Below are positions 6,054 through 54,637 of a DNA stretch of 64,000 bases, piece after piece. Under the pieces are notes generated by a model, which was given only the letters and a program-made list of their open reading frames with translations, ran no database searches and had not been told where the DNA came from. Made by a program: the position numbers and the translations under genes. Position 1 is the first letter of the stretch. Each line of letters begins with the position of its first letter. Source of the DNA: a virus; the UHGV virus genome UHGV-0351052. One strand, given 5' to 3'.

Positions 6054-6656
6054 TTATAGATTAAATCCTTCAAAATCAAGAGTATAGATAGTGTATGTTG
6101 AATACTTTTTGTACTCATATCTATCTGCAATTCTAAATACGCTTCCAGCCGGTATCATTACTTCTTGTTCATCTGAAACTAATTCCATATTACGATAACG
6201 ATGGCTATCTGGAAACTTAAAGTTTGGATTGTATTCTTTACAGCGTAGAGCTTTTATAGCATACTCCTGGAAATTGAATACCATAGGAGCTTTGAATTCA
6301 AAAATAACTTGTGTGTTATACTCTAACCCAGAAGCAAAATGTAGAGCTATATTTTTATCATATGAAGCTGATACGACTTTATCAAATGTAATAATATCAA
6401 TTCCTTGATTTAATACTTGCTTAGTCTCAGCTGGAACACCTCTCCAAAGAGGTTTATCGTTTGGAACCAAACGAGATTTGATTATTTCATTTAACCAAGT
6501 ATGGTCATCTGGTTTGTTGGTAATACAATGAATTAAAAGTTCAATTTCAGATAAATTAAACCCTTCAGAAAGTAATTCTTCACGAATAGAAGCACGCACC
6601 GATGCATCCACTGATTTTATTTTAAAATCTTTTAGTTGCATTACTGAGTATTTCAT
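6054..6656 (-). CDS. modA: Mod-type ADP-ribosyltransferase (ModA-like, 200 aa)
   Basis: R-S-E ART signature (LWRGV, SAS, EQEVMIP); size and slot. Confidence 0.65.
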   Translation of the reverse strand: MKYSVMQLKDFKIKSVDASVRASIREELLSEGFNLSEIELLIHCITNKPDDHTWLNEIIKSRLVPNDKPLWRGVPAETKQVLNQGIDIITFDKVVSASYDKNIALHFASGLEYNTQVIFEFKAPMVFNFQEYAIKALRCKEYNPNFKFPDSHRYRNMELVSDEQEVMIPAGSVFRIADRYEYKKYSTYTIYTLDFEGFNL

Positions 6657-7288
6657 TCAACTACCTCAATATCATACACTTTAAATGTTCCAAATGAATC
6701 GTGTAATTTTTCTTTTGAAATAGAAGTTATTCTATACTTTCCAATTGGAATCATCCATTCTTGTTCACGCACAATCATCATTAAGTTATCAGTACGTTCT
6801 GAATCTAATCCATCAGTATCTTCATATGTATACTTAAACTCAGTATTAGGAGAAGAAAGTATAATATCGCTGATATGGTCAGAATAATTAAAAGCTTTAT
6901 CAGTTTTTAAGCGAAATATTATTTCAGTGAAATACTCAACATAAGAAAAACCACATGCTGTGAGTAAACTAGTAGTAAATGAATCTACCCTGTTCGTTGA
7001 AAACACTTCTCCAACTTGTAAATCTTTAATGAGTTCTTTTGCCGATTTTGATATACCACGATATAGCTGATAAGGCGATTTAGTTAAATGCTTTTTAACG
7101 ATTTTATTCAACTGCCTATGAAGAGCTTCATTCTTTTTGGCTTCCATACATTGCCAAAGAATTGACTGTTCAAAGTCAGTAAATTTTTCACAGACCTTTT
7201 TATACATATCATATTGAAAATCGACACTTTCAGCTTTTATAGATAACTGTTCAACATCTGCAAGATTAATAATCATGATAGCCTCCAT
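6653..7288 (-). CDS. modB: Mod-type ADP-ribosyltransferase (ModB-like, 211 aa)
   Basis: YRGI, STN/STT and EQEWMIP motifs; tandem with modA. Confidence 0.65.
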   Translation of the reverse strand: MEAIMIINLADVEQLSIKAESVDFQYDMYKKVCEKFTDFEQSILWQCMEAKKNEALHRQLNKIVKKHLTKSPYQLYRGISKSAKELIKDLQVGEVFSTNRVDSFTTSLLTACGFSYVEYFTEIIFRLKTDKAFNYSDHISDIILSSPNTEFKYTYEDTDGLDSERTDNLMMIVREQEWMIPIGKYRITSISKEKLHDSFGTFKVYDIEVVE

Positions 7289-11595: not shown

Positions 11596-11796
11596 ATGGT
11601 ACAAAAATTAATGGCACTTGTTAATGCCATAAAAGGTAATAAGAAACGTATAGCTTTTACTATTTCTGCTATGATAGGAATTTTACTTTGGAATTTTGTT
11701 TTATCGCCAGTTGCTATTGCTCATGGCGTTAGTATTCCAGTAGTTACTCTTGATACATTCGTAGATTTAGCATTTGCTTTAGTTGGGTTAATTTAA
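11596..11796 (+). CDS. small two-helix hydrophobic protein, 66 aa; only intergenic plus-strand ORF in window
   Basis: AAAGGAGG about 5 nt before ATG 11596; no competing minus-strand ORF in the 305-bp dam-61 gap; convergent overlap with gene 61 stop. Confidence 0.35.
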   Translation: MVQKLMALVNAIKGNKKRIAFTISAMIGILLWNFVLSPVAIAHGVSIPVVTLDTFVDLAFALVGLI

Positions 11797-12821
11797 ATCT
11801 TAGCATATTTAGATAGCCGCATTTTAGCCATCAACCCCTGGGCAATATTATTTTTCATATATTCCATAATTTGTTCAGGGGTTGCACCTTCCTTTCTAAT
11901 CATATCATTAACATCTTTTGATTTCCAGGGAGATTTATCCCAAAACATAACCCTTTCTCCTGCATCAACTAATTTAGTCATTCGTTTAATAGTGTCAGGG
12001 TGACGAGGTTCATTATCTAAGACCCACACTCGTCTATCTTTAAATGGAACAACTTCTAGGTCTAATTGACCACCCGTAATAGCTATACCATTTTCAATAA
12101 AAAGTGAATCTATAGGTCCTTCTAGAACATATACATCACCATCTTTAACTCGTTCGACTCCATAGATTTTTGTTGCCTCAGGATAAGCTTTGATGGTGAT
12201 ATATTTTTGAGGAGCATCTTTCTTTAATGCACGTCCTTGAAAAGACTCAGCTTTTCCATTAGCATTATAAATTGGAATAACAAGACGAGGCTCAGAAATT
12301 TCCTTTTTGTATGTTCCCGGTGCTATGCTATTAACCAATTTAGGCCATTCGGTTGTAAACCAAAGATATTTCCATTTATCCTTTGGAATACAACGAGCTT
12401 TTACGTATTTTATAATTGGATGGTCTTCCGCCAGTTTATCTAATCTAACACATGACGGAAGAGATTTAATTATTTTCTTCTCAGGTTGTTTAGGAAGTTC
12501 TTTAGGTTTTTCTACTGGACGACTTTTACCTTTTTCTTTTCTTATTTCAAAGATATACTCACGATATAAATCAGGTTCAAACTCCTTTAGATATATTCCG
12601 ATTGGTGCATGATAGTTACAGTTATAACAATGAATATTTCCTTCATTATTATCACCATAATACCATCCACGGGCTTTATTTTGGTCGGTTTTTGAATCTC
12701 CACAAACAGGACATCTAAACCGTAATTTAAAAGTTGAACTATTATTTACTTGTGTGAATTTAGGTAAATGAGCTAATGCACGGTATGCGAACTCATTATC
12801 AATCCAAGGTATTGATGACAT
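11793..12821 (-). CDS. 61: DNA primase gp61
   Basis: 342 aa; N-terminal zinc ribbon CPVCGDS...CYNCNYH; Toprim-like core. Confidence 0.9.
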   Translation of the reverse strand: MSSIPWIDNEFAYRALAHLPKFTQVNNSSTFKLRFRCPVCGDSKTDQNKARGWYYGDNNEGNIHCYNCNYHAPIGIYLKEFEPDLYREYIFEIRKEKGKSRPVEKPKELPKQPEKKIIKSLPSCVRLDKLAEDHPIIKYVKARCIPKDKWKYLWFTTEWPKLVNSIAPGTYKKEISEPRLVIPIYNANGKAESFQGRALKKDAPQKYITIKAYPEATKIYGVERVKDGDVYVLEGPIDSLFIENGIAITGGQLDLEVVPFKDRRVWVLDNEPRHPDTIKRMTKLVDAGERVMFWDKSPWKSKDVNDMIRKEGATPEQIMEYMKNNIAQGLMAKMRLSKYAKI

Positions 12822-12989: not shown

Positions 12990-13616
12990 TTAACCTCTAT
13001 TCATAAAAGCATTAAAAATTTGGTCATCAATAGAAACATTTACTTTAGACTGTTTTTCAGATGGCAATTCATATCCACATATTACAATTTTATGATCAAT
13101 ATCAAAATACACAGAAGCAATATGATTAATGATGTTTTCAGTAAAGTCTAAATCAACATCAATATCTTTTTGACCACAGCCCAAAGGATAAATAATGCGA
13201 GTAATTCGATTATCTTTAACAAATATTCCACCGACATACTCTGTGCTGCGTTTAAAGTCTACACGCCGACGAAATGAAAAATATTCAGGCTCTTTATGAG
13301 CTCGGCTCATAGGGCACAACGAATAACTAGAATAAGAGATGTCAAATCCTACGCCTTCAATATGAACTAAATTGTCATGATTAAACCAATTATAATCATA
13401 TGCCAAGTCCATTAGATTGTCATATGTAAAAGGCACCGGATTAACATCATTGGTCACAAGCATATAATTAGCAACTGCTATAATTTCATTATTTTTAACG
13501 AATACAAACCGTGATTGATGCGAATGACCTGGACCTGCGTTTTCACGATTAATGATATAACACTGGGCACCTTTATATTTGTACGTGTCTTTACACTTGT
13601 GCATTTGATAAAGCAT
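12990..13616 (-). CDS. 61.2-slot protein, 208 aa (T4 61.2/AdfA-like by position)
   Basis: size and synteny; no motif verified. Confidence 0.45.
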   Translation of the reverse strand: MLYQMHKCKDTYKYKGAQCYIINRENAGPGHSHQSRFVFVKNNEIIAVANYMLVTNDVNPVPFTYDNLMDLAYDYNWFNHDNLVHIEGVGFDISYSSYSLCPMSRAHKEPEYFSFRRRVDFKRSTEYVGGIFVKDNRITRIIYPLGCGQKDIDVDLDFTENIINHIASVYFDIDHKIVICGYELPSEKQSKVNVSIDDQIFNAFMNRG

Positions 13617-50258: not shown

Positions 50259-50281
50259 AAAAAAGTCTCCCGAAGGAGACT
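50259..50281 (-). terminator. intrinsic terminator
   Basis: minus-strand RNA GUCUCC-UUCG-GGAGAC followed by UUUUUU; 5 nt past stop of 50286..50672. Confidence 0.6.
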
Positions 50282-52001: not shown

Positions 52002-52183
52002 AAGGAATTTATATAATCAATAAGTTCTTGTTCTTTATTATCGAATTCTTTAGAAAGTTCTTCGTACTCGTTTGCACTAAAAGGACCGCATTCATTACAA
52101 ACTTTTTCCAATTCACTATTTTTATCCATAACTTCGTGGATAAGAGAAAAGAGTCTGTCTTTTTGTTCTTTGCTTAGGCTCAT
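51998..52183 (-). CDS. small helical protein, 61 aa (family member F)
   Basis: MSLSKEQKDRLFSLI...LIDYINSL. Confidence 0.4.
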   Translation of the reverse strand: MSLSKEQKDRLFSLIHEVMDKNSELEKVCNECGPFSANEYEELSKEFDNKEQELIDYINSL

Positions 52184-52353
52184 ATATTAATTTCCAGAAG
52201 TTTTAAAATAATTCGCTTTTGCTTAAATATTTCCATAGTTAAATGATCAGTATCTTTTTGGCCAATTCCAATGGCAAAACCTTTATTAGCAGCGAGTTCA
52301 ATTAAATTATCAAGTTCACGTGACACTTCATATTGTAACTCAGAACTATTCAT
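52180..52353 (-). CDS. small hypothetical protein, 57 aa (below ORF-track cutoff)
   Basis: hand translation MNSSELQYEVSRELDNLIELAANKGF... Confidence 0.25.
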   Translation of the reverse strand: MNSSELQYEVSRELDNLIELAANKGFAIGIGQKDTDHLTMEIFKQKRIILKLLEINI

Positions 52354-52562
52354 TTCGGTTTACCTTCTTTAACGAAATCTGGATAAGGATAAAATCCCGA
52401 ATAAAATCCTTCACCTTTATGATTGATGCATCCTTTATTAGAACAATAGCACCAATAATCGAAATCACAAGCCATTTCATCGTTGCATAAAGCAAAAACA
52501 ACTGGCCATTTACACTTTTCACAATGGGCATTTTTAAGAATACTAGTTTGGCTCATAACCAT
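52350..52562 (-). CDS. Cys-rich small protein, 70 aa (probable zinc-binding)
   Basis: eight Cys: CEKC...C...C...CYC...C. Confidence 0.4.
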   Translation of the reverse strand: MVMSQTSILKNAHCEKCKWPVVFALCNDEMACDFDYWCYCSNKGCINHKGEGFYSGFYPYPDFVKEGKPK

Positions 52563-52780
52563 GTCACCTTTAAGCAGTATTCTTCTACATGTTGTTTACG
52601 ACCTTTCTTATCAATAAAGGTATATTCAACGAATGTTCCAATGTAGTCTTTATCTACATCATGTGGACTATTAATTGGACATTTAGTACGGCAAATGCGT
52701 TCCCATTGACGAATAATTACTGCCTTATTCTTTGGGTCATATGGATGTGGATAATGTATATTCATAATAATGGTTCCCAA
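52553..52780 (-). CDS. hypothetical protein, 75 aa
   Basis: ORF-track ORF. Confidence 0.4.
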   Translation of the reverse strand: MGTIIMNIHYPHPYDPKNKAVIIRQWERICRTKCPINSPHDVDKDYIGTFVEYTFIDKKGRKQHVEEYCLKVTWL

Positions 52781-53229
52781 TCAACAATCACAATTTCTAA
52801 TTTAGAGGAATATGTATCTAAAATCCCCTCAATAATATCCCAGTTCCCTTTACCTATGCCTGCACCAATCCTAGGCATATAGATTGTAGGTTTAATCAGT
52901 TTATTTTCACCAAACTCATTTAATTCTAACATACAATTCATTAAAGCGGAATACTCAAAATTTGGCCCTGGTTGAAATTGAGTATAAAGATTGAAGCAGT
53001 AAGCTTTATGAGTCCTAAAGTATTTTTCATAGACTGAATAAGAACCAAGTTTAGTTACATCACCCCATTCAGTCTGTAATTTATCAGCTTCCAAAATTTT
53101 AGGGAAAGCTTTGGTTAATTGACCTGCGACTCCAGCTTTCATCGTATGAAAACAATTGCATCCATGCGCAATATTTTTACCTTCAGCGAAAAGGGCGACA
53201 ATATCGCCCTTGATATATTTTACAATCAT
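52762..53229 (-). CDS. macrodomain protein (TARG1/OARD1/DarG-like ADP-ribose hydrolase fold), 155 aa
   Basis: IKGDIV...IAHGCNCFHTMKAGVAGQ...YMPRIGAGIGKGNW aligns with TARG1-type KGDLF...LAHCIS.DC.MGAGIA...MPRIGCGLDRLQW. Confidence 0.55.
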   Translation of the reverse strand: MIVKYIKGDIVALFAEGKNIAHGCNCFHTMKAGVAGQLTKAFPKILEADKLQTEWGDVTKLGSYSVYEKYFRTHKAYCFNLYTQFQPGPNFEYSALMNCMLELNEFGENKLIKPTIYMPRIGAGIGKGNWDIIEGILDTYSSKLEIVIVDWEPLL

Positions 53230-53573
53230 TTAGTACTCAATCCTCGATTATAAGAATCTACCAAACGGTCAACCATTGAATGACAAGCGGCTTTATCTTT
53301 CTCCTCCGCAACTGAACATTCTAAGGTATTCCACTTTTTAGCATATCGTTTTAATAATGTATCGTTTTTGTATCTGCTTGATTTATCTCTTTCTCCATCT
53401 TTATATGCATATATTAATTTCTGCGCAAATTCAGCTTGGCATGCTTTATTTTTCCCACAATAATCTGCCGCAGTGCGATTTACATATTCTCTAATTTCAG
53501 TATATGATGTATCTGCTGACGCAGAAGCAGAAAATGAAATTAATCCTATACATAAAACCAAAATTTTAGTCAT
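53226..53573 (-). CDS. secreted protein, 115 aa (signal peptide, four Cys)
   Basis: MTKILVLCIGLISFSASASA signal peptide. Confidence 0.45.
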   Translation of the reverse strand: MTKILVLCIGLISFSASASADTSYTEIREYVNRTAADYCGKNKACQAEFAQKLIYAYKDGERDKSSRYKNDTLLKRYAKKWNTLECSVAEEKDKAACHSMVDRLVDSYNRGLSTK

Positions 53574-54111
53574 TTACTATTTCCAAAAGTTTATTATTTT
53601 TAAGGTAATTAGCCTTTTCTAGGACTTCAGAAGCATATTTAGAACCAGCTTTAACATTCCATCCCGAATTATAAGAGGATATTGCTTTTCTTATATCGCC
53701 CTTATGTATATTTAACCAATAAGAAAGTTCAATGTACGCCCAGGAAGCTGAATTGGATCGTTTATTCAACATTCTTTTTATTTCAGCATCGGTCATATTA
53801 TAACCAAGTTCCTTAACTCTCGCTCGCATAGTAGGCAAATAATTTTGGAACATTCCGTAGGCGTGATGCTTTGGTTTAGATTTTAAATTAACTCCGCCAG
53901 AGCTTTCTTGCCATAAAATGGCTGCCATTATATGACCTAATCCACTCTTGTGGATGTTTTTGTGTGTTTTATATTTTCCATCCTTAGAAAATTGTTCCCC
54001 GAATTGATACGCGTAACGCATGTTATCGAGTTGGACATTACTGAAAGTATGCTCGGAGCTATGTGCCATCATTGAAATGGCCAATAGACCAGCGAGTAGT
54101 GCTTTTCTCAT
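53566..54111 (-). CDS. secreted lysozyme-like/transglycosylase-like protein, 181 aa
   Basis: signal peptide; ILWQESSG Glu-Ser motif typical of SLT/goose-type lysozyme folds. Confidence 0.45.
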   Translation of the reverse strand: MRKALLAGLLAISMMAHSSEHTFSNVQLDNMRYAYQFGEQFSKDGKYKTHKNIHKSGLGHIMAAILWQESSGGVNLKSKPKHHAYGMFQNYLPTMRARVKELGYNMTDAEIKRMLNKRSNSASWAYIELSYWLNIHKGDIRKAISSYNSGWNVKAGSKYASEVLEKANYLKNNKLLEIVND

Positions 54112-54607: not shown

Positions 54608-54637
54608 ATTATACCACAGTCAAGAGGAAAAGTAAAC
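54608..54637 (-). promoter_or_regulatory. T4-type early promoter (GTTTAC ... TGGTATAAT)
   Basis: minus-strand GTTTAC 54637-54632, TGG+TATAAT 54616-54608; 27 nt before regB ATG. Confidence 0.55.

What the first reader, a model, noticed from the sequence alone, without database searches (positions are those of the whole stretch)
52762..53229. TARG1/DarG-type macrodomain ORF in the tk-regB interval
The 155-aa ORF carries the diagnostic TARG1/OARD1-type macrodomain signatures (KGD..., AHGCNC...M.AGVAG, MPRIGAGxxxxxW). This is the fold used by the DarG antitoxin and by TARG1 to remove ADP-ribose from DNA bases and acidic side chains. A phage copy could reverse ADP-ribosylation imposed by host DarT-like or ART-based defences, or edit the phage's own ModA/ModB marks. 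The position aligned with the TARG1 catalytic Asp appears substituted (GIGKGNW versus GLDRLQW), so it may be a binder or use different chemistry.
Basis: partly seen in the sequence, partly recalled or inferred. Interest (0 to 1): 0.55.

Follow-up and report, generated by a model that had tools for sequence, protein, structure and literature searches.

The report
T4 Tk.4 (AdfM) anti-DarT2 macrodomain

Summary
The 155-aa ORF at 52762..53229 (-) is real and is tk.4 of a T4/T6-like phage. It is 153/155 identical to T4 Tk.4.

A November 2025 preprint (HIDEN-SEQ) found T4 tk.4 as the single transposon-screen hit needed on DarTG2-expressing hosts. A clean knockout became DarTG2-sensitive, and the gene was renamed adfM. 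The finding is therefore correct but already known.

The more telling difference was missed: the catalytic Lys of TARG1 (K84) and DarG (K80) is an invariant Gln (Q84) throughout the Tk.4 family. The same substitution occurs in Streptomyces SCO6735, which cleaves thymidine-linked ADP-ribose and requires that Gln.

Tk.4 therefore probably removes ADP-ribose from DarT2-modified thymidines by lysine-independent chemistry. It is not a DarG orthologue. It also belongs to a different subfamily from the Lys-containing PhiKZ "AdfM". No enzymology exists for the T4-type protein.

The parts
52762..53229 (-). tk.4 / adfM coding sequence: 155 aa, a single macrodomain with no extra domain
   Evidence: ORF list. 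153/155 identical to T4 Tk.4 NP_049723. Pfam Macro. AF2 pLDDT 95.9.
53152..53169 (-). Codons 21-26, AHGCNC. H22 and N25 line the distal-ribose side of the ADP-ribose pocket. They correspond to SCO6735 H24/N27, DarG N22 and PhiKZ gp104 N23.
   Evidence: H22 conserved in 100/105 and N25 in 104/105 family members, and 80/80 each in bacterial relatives. Alignment to references. DarG N22A, PhiKZ N23A and SCO6735 N27S mutants are described.
53122..53142 (-). Codons 30-36, MKAGVAG: phosphate-binding loop 1 (the 'GxG' loop). The first Gly is Lys in this phage (T4 has MGSGVAG).
   Evidence: G33 and A35 are invariant. Position 31 is G in 89/105 and K in 5/105. Comparison with T4.
53125..53143 (-). Mosaic patch: 9 of the 13 nucleotide differences from T4 tk.4 fall in these 19 bases (codons 29-35).
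52978..52992 (-). Codons 80-84, NLYTQ. Q84 (CAA, 52978-52980) occupies the position of the catalytic Lys of TARG1 (K84) and DarG (K80), and of Gln85 of SCO6735.
   Evidence: hhalign column mapping. hmmsearch alignments to TARG1 and BT1257. Q84 conserved in 105/105 and 80/80. SCO6735 Q85 literature.
52840..52878 (-). Codons 118-130, MPRIGAGIGKGNW: ADP-ribose-grasping loop 2. G126 aligns with TARG1 D125 and with DarG G121.
   Evidence: P119, I121, G122 and G124 are invariant and W130 is in 102/105.
53226..53573 (-). Upstream gene vs (valyl-tRNA synthetase modifier). Its TGA stop overlaps the tk.4 ATG (ATGA).
52553..52765 (-). Downstream gene tk.3 (70 aa). Its ATG overlaps the tk.4 TGA stop (ATGA).
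   Evidence: (identical to T4 Tk.3).
54608..54636 (-). Sigma-70-like promoter (TTTACT-17-TATAAT with TG) just upstream of regB. It is a candidate early promoter for the regB-vs.1-vs-tk.4...tk transcript. The only minus-strand terminator-like site found downstream of it is at 50264-50281.
   Evidence: Consensus scan only. Promoter-like sites were not enriched over shuffles, so this is weak evidence.

Best explanation
The ORF is tk.4 (adfM), a stand-alone macrodomain of the ALC1/TARG1-like class. It is made early in infection together with regB, vs and tk.

Proposed mechanism: when a host DarTG2 system releases DarT2, the toxin ADP-ribosylates thymidines in single-stranded phage DNA and blocks replication. 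Tk.4 binds the ADP-ribose in its cleft (loop 1 residues 30-36, loop 2 residues 118-130). It then hydrolyses the ribose-thymine bond, releasing ADP-ribose and restoring the base, so replication continues.

Unlike TARG1 and DarG, Tk.4 has no catalytic lysine. An invariant Gln84, with H22 and N25, occupies the site, as in Streptomyces SCO6735. The chemistry is therefore most likely lysine-independent: Gln positions the distal ribose and a water molecule attacks.

Shown: the domain identity and its class; the residue mapping; and, for the 98.7%-identical T4 protein, the genetic requirement on DarTG2 hosts (published). Inferred: the hydrolytic activity, the substrate and the catalytic mechanism of the T4-type protein, and that the Lys31 allele in this window behaves like the T4 allele.
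For: Identity with T4 Tk.4 is 153/155, with the same synteny.

Published genetics: tk.4 was the single significant HIDEN-SEQ hit on DarTG2 hosts, a clean knockout was sensitised, and the gene was named adfM. T4 lacking adfA and adfN stays DarTG2-resistant, so another factor was expected.

Active site: Q84 aligns with DarG K80 and TARG1 K84 and with SCO6735 Q85. Q84, H22 and N25 are conserved in 105 family members and 80 bacterial relatives.

Precedent: SCO6735 cleaves dT-ADPr on ssDNA, Q85A and Q85E are inactive, and it protects against DarT. This was confirmed with synthetic substrates. A DarG macrodomain alone is sufficient as an antitoxin. Another phage macrodomain, PhiKZ gp104, removes DarT2 marks in vitro.

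Supporting context: a NADAR gene (guanine-ADPr hydrolase family) sits directly upstream of Tk.4-like genes in 3 of 80 bacterial loci. Tk.4 protein is detected in T2-infected cells.
Against: No biochemical assay of any T4-type Tk.4 was found in the searchable literature. The preprint itself only infers hydrolysis.

The catalytic Lys that is essential in DarG and TARG1 is absent. Overall, the Tk.4 family is no closer to SCO6735 (hhalign score 105.5) than to DarG (113.9), so the Gln analogy rests on one aligned position plus H and N. The SCO6735 DNA-binding lysines K34 and K89 and its longer mobile loop are not conserved.

This window's allele replaces the first Gly of the conserved GxG loop with Lys, and that allele is untested. 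I could not inspect the model coordinates to confirm that H22, N25 and Q84 face the pocket.
Confidence: 0.75

Rival explanations
1. Tk.4 protects against DarTG2 without catalysis, either by binding and inhibiting DarT2 directly or by shielding ADP-ribosylated sites. This would resemble the small Adf proteins AdfA and AdfB, or the 'interaction-inhibition' reported for catalytically dead SCO6735.
For: The catalytic Lys and Asp of TARG1 are both missing. SCO6735 Q85A still inhibits DarT in vitro. AdfA acts by binding DarT1.
Against: Invariance of H22, N25, Q84 and both ADP-ribose loops across phage and bacterial homologues from many phyla argues for a conserved small-ligand or enzyme site, not for a surface matched to one toxin. 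None of the 80 bacterial loci examined has a DarT2 gene nearby. The TaqDarG macrodomain K80A alone did not inhibit DarT. Binding to the lesion would not restore replication.
Confidence: 0.1
2. Its main job is small-molecule ADP-ribose metabolism: ADP-ribose-1''-phosphate phosphatase or O-acetyl-ADP-ribose deacetylase. This is the historical 'A1pp phosphatase' annotation. On this view the DarTG2 phenotype is a side activity.
Against: These annotations come from motif transfer, not experiment. Poa1p F152 aligns to G126, and Poa1p has Ser where the Tk.4 family has an invariant Gln (alignment, plus my own reading of the Poa1p sequence). tk.4 was the only T4 gene specifically required on DarTG2 hosts. 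T4 RNA repair does not generate Appr1p (established knowledge).
Confidence: 0.08
3. It erases protein or RNA ADP-ribosylation. The targets would be marks written by the phage's own Alt/ModA/ModB enzymes, or by other host ART defences such as CmdTAC.
For: ModA- and ModB-like genes are in the same window (6054-7288). SCO6735 and TARG1 also act on Glu/Asp-linked protein ADPr.
Against: Alt and Mod enzymes modify arginine (established knowledge), a linkage that this macrodomain class is not known to cleave. T4 carrying tk.4 is still strongly restricted by CmdTAC. No genetic or contextual link to mod or alt genes was found.
Confidence: 0.05
4. In this particular phage the Lys31 allele is a non-functional or specificity-shifted variant of AdfM.
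For: G31 is the first Gly of the near-universal GxG loop. It is G in 89/105 family members, and in DarG, TARG1 and SCO6735. The change sits in a 19-nt mosaic patch.
Against: The same MKAG allele occurs in a 122-member protein cluster and in other phages (P0001, P0003). Thirty-seven phage records are at least 99% identical. K or R at this position is also seen in 5 of 80 bacterial relatives. The ORF is otherwise intact, and most substitutions in the patch are synonymous.
Confidence: 0.1

Closest known systems
T4 Tk.4 = AdfM (anti-DarT factor Macrodomain), HIDEN-SEQ preprint 10.1101/2025.11.20.689424
   Same: Orthologue: 153/155 identical, same length, and same position between vs and tk.3.
   Different: Two adjacent residues in loop 1 differ (G31K, S32A), inside a 19-nt mosaic patch. 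This phage also has a 367-bp insertion with two extra small ORFs further downstream, between tk.2 and tk.3.
Streptomyces coelicolor SCO6735 (PDB 5e3b) and its Bacteroides homologue BT1257 (2fg1/2afc)
   Different: Only about 25-29% identical. Profile-profile score is no better than to DarG. Tk.4 lacks the roughly 5-residue longer mobile loop and lysines K34 and K89, which matter for DNA substrates in SCO6735. Tk.4 has YTQ where SCO6735 has IGQ.
DarG antitoxin macrodomain (M. tuberculosis 5m3i, T. aquaticus 5m31/5m3e)
   Different: No catalytic Lys (K80 becomes Q84). No C-terminal DarT-binding domain (155 aa against about 340). No adjacent darT gene. It scores 25 bits against the NCBIfam DarG cut-off of 250.
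PhiKZ gp104, also named AdfM (Cell Rep 2026, PMC13309987)
   Same: A phage-encoded single macrodomain that counters DarTG2. Its removal of T-ADPr has been shown in vitro.
   Different: A genuine DarG-type sequence with the FPTK Lys motif. BLASTP against Tk.4 is insignificant (E 0.018 over 23 aa). The two 'AdfM' proteins therefore belong to different subfamilies and were probably recruited independently.
Human TARG1/OARD1 (4j5r/4j5s)
   Same: Best Foldseek hit (E 2e-10). Gapless register around the catalytic strand: T83, position 84, Y93 and L96 share the same numbering. The His (H32 / H22) and the MPRIG loop are shared.
   Different: K84 is Q84 and D125 is G126, so the Lys/Asp dyad is absent.
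Yeast Poa1p ADP-ribose-1''-phosphate phosphatase (6lfq)
   Different: Poa1p has Ser at the Gln84 position, and its F152 aligns to Gly (alignment). No evidence links Tk.4 to Appr1p.

Membership tests
Macro domain (Pfam PF01661) | Whole-protein score at or above Pfam's gathering threshold | tested here: met
   25.0 bits against a cut-off of 22, E 1.9e-5, covering residues 22-132.
Macro domain (Pfam PF01661) | Three-layer alpha/beta/alpha macro fold | tested here: met
ALC1/TARG1-like macrodomain class | Closest structural and profile neighbours are TARG1, DarG, Poa1p, SCO6735 or ALC1 rather than MacroD, PARG or macroH2A types | tested here: met
TARG1/OARD1 | Catalytic Lys84 | tested here: not met
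   Aligns to Gln84, which is invariant in the family.
TARG1/OARD1 | Catalytic Asp125 | tested here: not met
   Aligns to Gly126.
DarG antitoxin (NCBIfam NF048014 equivalog) | Score at or above the curated cut-off (250 bits) | tested here: not met
   25.1 bits, matching only profile positions 2-146 of 338. The PADLOC DarG hit likewise covers positions 2-145 of 329.
DarG antitoxin | C-terminal DarT-binding domain | tested here: not met
   The protein ends at residue 155, and the macrodomain fills it.
DarG antitoxin | Catalytic Lys80 in an FPTK motif | tested here: not met
   Tk.4 has LYTQ. Q84 aligns to K80.
DarG antitoxin | Encoded next to a darT toxin gene | tested here: not met
   The neighbours are vs and tk.3. 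No DarT2-like sequence lies within 5 kb of 80 bacterial relatives by tblastn with one DarT2 query. That test has limited sensitivity.
SCO6735-type (Gln-type) thymidine-ADPr hydrolase | Gln at the position of the TARG1/DarG catalytic Lys | tested here: met
   Q84 aligns with SCO6735 Q85 and the BT1257 Gln. Conserved in 105/105 and 80/80.
SCO6735-type (Gln-type) thymidine-ADPr hydrolase | His24 and Asn27 of the AHVCND motif | tested here: met
   AHGCNC with H22 and N25.
SCO6735-type (Gln-type) thymidine-ADPr hydrolase | Extended mobile loop with Lys89, and loop-1 Lys34, used for DNA substrates | tested here: not met
   The loop after Q84 is short (FQPGPNFEY) and has no Lys. K34 aligns to A32, although this allele has K31 next to it.
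SCO6735-type (Gln-type) thymidine-ADPr hydrolase | Hydrolysis of dT-ADPr on ssDNA that depends on the Gln | not testable with these tools
   Needs enzyme assays. None was found for Tk.4 in the literature searched.
AdfM of T4 (Tk.4) | Orthology to T4 tk.4 by sequence and synteny | tested here: met
   153/155 identical. The flanks are 98% identical at the DNA level.
AdfM of T4 (Tk.4) | Required for plating on DarTG2-expressing hosts | not testable with these tools
   Published for T4. Not tested for this phage or this allele.
Poa1p-like Appr1p phosphatase | Residues probed in the Poa1p crystal structures (H23, S30, F152) | tested here: inconclusive
   H23 = H22 is conserved. S30 = T29 (Thr in 68/105). 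F152 aligns to G126.

The most novel reading that the evidence does not exclude
T4-type AdfM is not a captured DarG antitoxin. It represents a separate, very widespread Lys-less 'HxxN...YTQ' clade of ALC1-like macrodomains, found in about 5% of sequenced phage genomes and in hundreds of bacterial genomes. This clade would remove thymine-linked ADP-ribose by a Gln- and water-based mechanism like that of SCO6735. On this reading the two phage proteins called AdfM (T4 Tk.4 and PhiKZ gp104) are independent recruits with different catalytic chemistry. The bacterial members would be stand-alone DNA-ADPr 'immunity/repair' enzymes, sometimes paired with a NADAR. The loop-1 mosaic patch (Lys31 allele) may tune substrate or DNA binding.
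Probability: 0.5. Interest if true: 0.4.

Novelty: already known. Interest (0 to 1): 0.28.

Why it matters
DarTG systems are common anti-phage defences, and T-even phages resist both types. Tk.4/AdfM explains the DarTG2 half of that resistance, and gp30.3/AdfN explains the DarTG1 half. For this scan the practical result is that the finding re-discovers a gene whose domain has been annotated for two decades and whose role was published in 2025.

One point is still open and directly testable. The T4-type enzyme lacks the lysine that DarG and TARG1 need, and it carries the Gln seen in SCO6735. It would therefore be a second, phage-borne test case for lysine-independent removal of ADP-ribose from DNA bases. 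It also shows that 'AdfM' currently names two mechanistically different proteins.

Tried and rejected
1. I looked for a DarT partner near 80 bacterial Tk.4 relatives by tblastn with P. aeruginosa DarT2. There was no hit better than E 2.6. The 'orphaned TA antitoxin' origin is therefore unsupported, though a single-sequence search is not very sensitive.

2. I tried to decide whether the family is closer to SCO6735/BT1257/ALC1 or to DarG by profile-profile comparison. The scores were 105.5 and 113.9, which is inconclusive.

3. Exact-match scans of IMG/VR for the two loop-1 alleles gave 3 hits for the window allele and 0 for the T4 allele. This is uninformative about allele frequency, because synonymous variation breaks exact matches.

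4. In the promoter/terminator scan, promoter-like sites were not enriched (21 found against 26 expected). Only a plausible site upstream of regB is noted.

5. Neighbours of five bacterial homologues were scanned with Pfam. The contexts were heterogeneous (bactofilin, halogenase, Uma2, CbiJ, TK, integrase, NADAR, EamA), with no conserved partner apart from the occasional NADAR.

6. Literature checks for a link to CmdTAC, to RNA-ADPr reversal, or to a specific mention in the Iyer/Aravind survey found nothing about Tk.4.

7. I considered the ORF being a thymidine-kinase-related protein, as mislabelled in a T2 preprint. I rejected this, because the gene name only reflects its map position.

Full report
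**What is there.** The window is a Tequatrovirus (T4/T6-like) genome segment. The 2.6 kb around the finding is 99.2% identical to Escherichia phage JEP6 and 98.6-98.7% identical to T6. It is about 98% identical to T4 coordinates 58.5-64 kb, apart from one 367-bp insertion.

The ORF at 52762..53229 on the minus strand encodes 155 aa. It lies between vs (53226..53573) and tk.3 (52553..52765), inside the regB-vs.1-vs-tk.4-tk.3...tk block, exactly as in T4. Its ATG overlaps the vs stop codon, and its TGA overlaps the tk.3 ATG. Both are ATGA overlaps, read directly, so the three genes are probably translationally coupled.

The protein is 153/155 identical to T4 Tk.4 (NP_049723, annotated 'phosphatase; contains A1pp phosphatase motif').

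**Domain and class.** Pfam Macro (PF01661) matches above its gathering score, at 25 bits against 22. PHROG 335 ('phosphatase') matches at 1e-64. The PADLOC and NCBIfam DarG models match only over their macrodomain parts. The NCBIfam hit, at 25 bits, is far below the 250-bit cut-off.

After these the scores drop to 13.7 or less for coronavirus, PARP14 and MacroD-type domains. Foldseek ranks TARG1, Poa1p, BT1257 and DarG on top. A family profile scores the same set at 48-74 bits, against about 21 bits for viral MacroD-type domains. The 'TARG1/DarG-type' (ALC1-like class) assignment is therefore correct.

**What is already known.** The HIDEN-SEQ preprint (bioRxiv 10.1101/2025.11.20.689424, November 2025) reports three things. 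First, tk.4 was the single significant transposon-insertion hit when the T4 library was grown on a DarTG2-expressing host. Second, a clean tk.4 knockout sensitised T4 to DarTG2. Third, the AlphaFold model resembles the M. tuberculosis DarG macrodomain.

The authors named the gene adfM and wrote that it 'seems likely' to remove ADP-ribose from DNA enzymatically. No assay was shown. This filled a gap left by earlier work, which had found that T4 lacking adfA and adfN remains DarTG2-resistant.

Separately, a Cell Reports 2026 paper gave the same name, AdfM, to PhiKZ gp104. It showed in vitro that gp104 removes DarT2-made T-ADPr from an oligonucleotide, with an N23A mutant impaired. I found no biochemical study of the T4-type protein. 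A T2 preprint detects Tk.4 protein in infected cells and its mRNA in RIL-seq chimeras with the host sRNA ArcZ, but mislabels it a thymidine kinase.

**Active-site anatomy.** I recovered the true sequences of TARG1, M. tuberculosis and T. aquaticus DarG, BT1257, SCO6735 and the ALC1 macrodomain from PDB searches. PhiKZ gp104 came from the paper's methods.

Profile-profile alignment of the Tk.4 family to DarG and TARG1 has 99.5% probability and places three key positions as follows:

| Tk.4 | DarG | TARG1 | Note |
|---|---|---|---|
| Q84 | K80 | K84 | catalytic Lys position |
| G126 | G121 | D125 | TARG1 catalytic Asp position |
| N25 | N22 | – | PhiKZ gp104 N23 |

These placements are confirmed.

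It is not diagnostic, because DarG also lacks that Asp, as the SCO6735 paper states explicitly.

The bigger departure is the catalytic lysine. K80A inactivates DarG and abolishes rescue from DarT. In Tk.4 that position is Gln. The Gln is invariant in all 105 family members aligned. It is also invariant in all 80 bacterial relatives retrieved with patterns that did not include it. H22, N25, N80 and Y82 are equally conserved.

**Precedent for a Gln-type enzyme.** Streptomyces SCO6735 (PDB 5e3b) is a stand-alone ALC1-like macrodomain with Gln85 at this same position. It hydrolyses thymidine-linked ADP-ribose on ssDNA efficiently and loses all activity in Q85A and Q85E mutants. The proposed mechanism uses an activated water, with Gln85 hydrogen-bonding the distal-ribose ring oxygen. 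It also protects cells against DarT, and its activity was re-confirmed with synthetic substrates.

SCO6735 and its close homologue BT1257 share several features with Tk.4: the His and Asn (AHVCND against AHGCNC), the N-x-x-x-Q strand end (NMIGQ against NLYTQ) and the IGxGxxGGxW loop. BT1257 is the best structural and profile match to Tk.4.

The analogy has limits. Overall profile similarity to the SCO6735 group (score 105.5) is no higher than to DarG (113.9). Tk.4 also lacks SCO6735's longer mobile loop and its DNA-contacting lysines K34 and K89. I therefore file Tk.4 as its own clade within the ALC1-like class that works like SCO6735 or DarG. It is not a member of either family.

**Relation to the other 'AdfM'.** PhiKZ gp104 has the DarG-type FPTK motif with the lysine. 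It shows no significant BLASTP similarity to Tk.4 (E 0.018 over 23 residues). The two phage proteins sharing the name therefore come from different subfamilies and probably use different chemistry.

**Distribution and context.** tblastn finds Tk.4 relatives in 2,734 of 50,697 phage records. Most are large myoviruses of Escherichia, Klebsiella, Salmonella, Pseudomonas, Vibrio, Acinetobacter and Aeromonas. BFVD structure hits agree.

At least 499 bacterial genome loci encode relatives across many phyla. No DarT2-like gene lies within 5 kb of the best 80, and the neighbours are heterogeneous. In 3 of the 80 loci (two Ruegeria and one Bacteroidales) a NADAR gene sits immediately upstream. That pairing mirrors T4's own pair of AdfN (NADAR, guanine-ADPr) and AdfM (macro, thymine-ADPr), and it fits a DNA-ADPr-reversal role.

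**This phage's allele.** The only protein differences from T4 are G31K and S32A, in phosphate-binding loop 1 (TMGSG becomes TMKAG). Nine of the 13 nucleotide differences in the gene cluster within 19 bases there, at 53125-53143, so this is a local recombination patch.

G31 is the first Gly of the conserved GxG loop. Even so, the Lys allele is common. It is carried by the representative of a 122-member protein cluster (P0001) and by P0003, 37 phage records are at least 99% identical to this protein, and K or R occurs at this position in 5 of 80 bacterial relatives. I therefore expect it to be functional. It has not been tested.

**Most likely mechanism.** Confidence is about 0.75. The gene is expressed early from the regB-proximal transcript (an inference; the promoter evidence is weak). 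The protein binds ADP-ribosyl-thymidine in ssDNA made by DarT2. It then hydrolyses the N-glycosidic ribose-thymine bond without a lysine nucleophile, with Gln84, Asn25 and His22 positioning the substrate and a water molecule, and so restores replicable DNA.

The rivals are non-catalytic DarT2 inhibition (0.1), small-molecule Appr1p or OAADPr processing as the main role (0.08), erasure of protein or RNA ADP-ribosylation including ModA/ModB marks (0.05), and an impaired or specificity-shifted Lys31 allele in this phage (0.1).

**Verdict.** The remaining novelty is mechanistic: a Lys-less Gln-type site, distinct from DarG and from PhiKZ AdfM. It is modest and directly testable.

Noticed in passing
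window 53125-53143 (-), codons 29-35 of tk.4: Nine of the 13 nucleotide differences from T4 tk.4 are packed into 19 bases that encode ADP-ribose-binding loop 1 (TMGSGVA becomes TMKAGVA). This looks like a short recombination or gene-conversion patch in an otherwise 99% identical gene.
   Followed up: partly
window 52185-52551 (-): A 367-bp insertion relative to T4, between tk.2 and tk.3, carries two small ORFs. One is 57 aa (52180..52353, PHROG 3452). The other is 70 aa and Cys-rich, with a zinc-ribbon-like CxxC...CxC...C pattern (52350..52562, PHROG 2306). Both are of unknown function.
   Followed up: partly
window 6054-6656 and 6653-7288 (-): Two tandem ModA/ModB-like ADP-ribosyltransferase genes (PHROG 832, 'RNA polymerase ADP-ribosylase') lie in the same window. 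The phage therefore carries both writers and an eraser-type domain, but nothing links them.
   Followed up: no
window 12990-13616 (-): A 208-aa ORF downstream of the primase-sized ORF (11793..12821) sits in the position of T4 gene 61.2 (AdfA, the anti-DarT1 factor) (PHROG 3781). It has His at residue 165 in an 'INHIAS' context. Equivalence to the critical His164 of RB69/T4 AdfA was not checked.
   Followed up: partly
loci L017 4535-4993, L054 4532-4987, L046 4565-4999: In two Ruegeria genomes and one Bacteroidales MAG, a NADAR-domain gene ends a few bases before the Tk.4-like macrodomain gene. This may be a two-enzyme cassette for reversing DNA ADP-ribosylation.
   Followed up: partly
phage record OL964745.1, 53142-53586: A record labelled Escherichia phage T4 (159.7 kb) has tk.4 matched in two pieces and annotated as two macro-domain CDSs. 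This suggests a frameshifted or split tk.4 in that stock.
   Followed up: no
window 53191-53211: An 8-bp-stem GC-rich inverted repeat (AAGGGCGACAATATCGCCCTT) lies within codons 7-13 of tk.4, close to its start codon. It was flagged only as a plus-strand terminator-like site. Any role in tk.4 mRNA structure or sRNA pairing (the T2 tk.4 mRNA pairs with ArcZ) is unknown.
   Followed up: no
window 53566-54111 (-), vs.1: The 181-aa Vs.1 homologue has an N-terminal signal-peptide-like segment and weak PHROG matches to lytic tail-protein and endolysin families, on top of its own family of unknown function (PHROG 600).
   Followed up: no
locus L025 5818-6486: In Flagellimonas marina a thymidine kinase gene lies about 360 bp downstream of the Tk.4-like macrodomain gene. 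This echoes the tk-tk.4 proximity in T4, and was seen in only 1 of 80 loci.
   Followed up: partly
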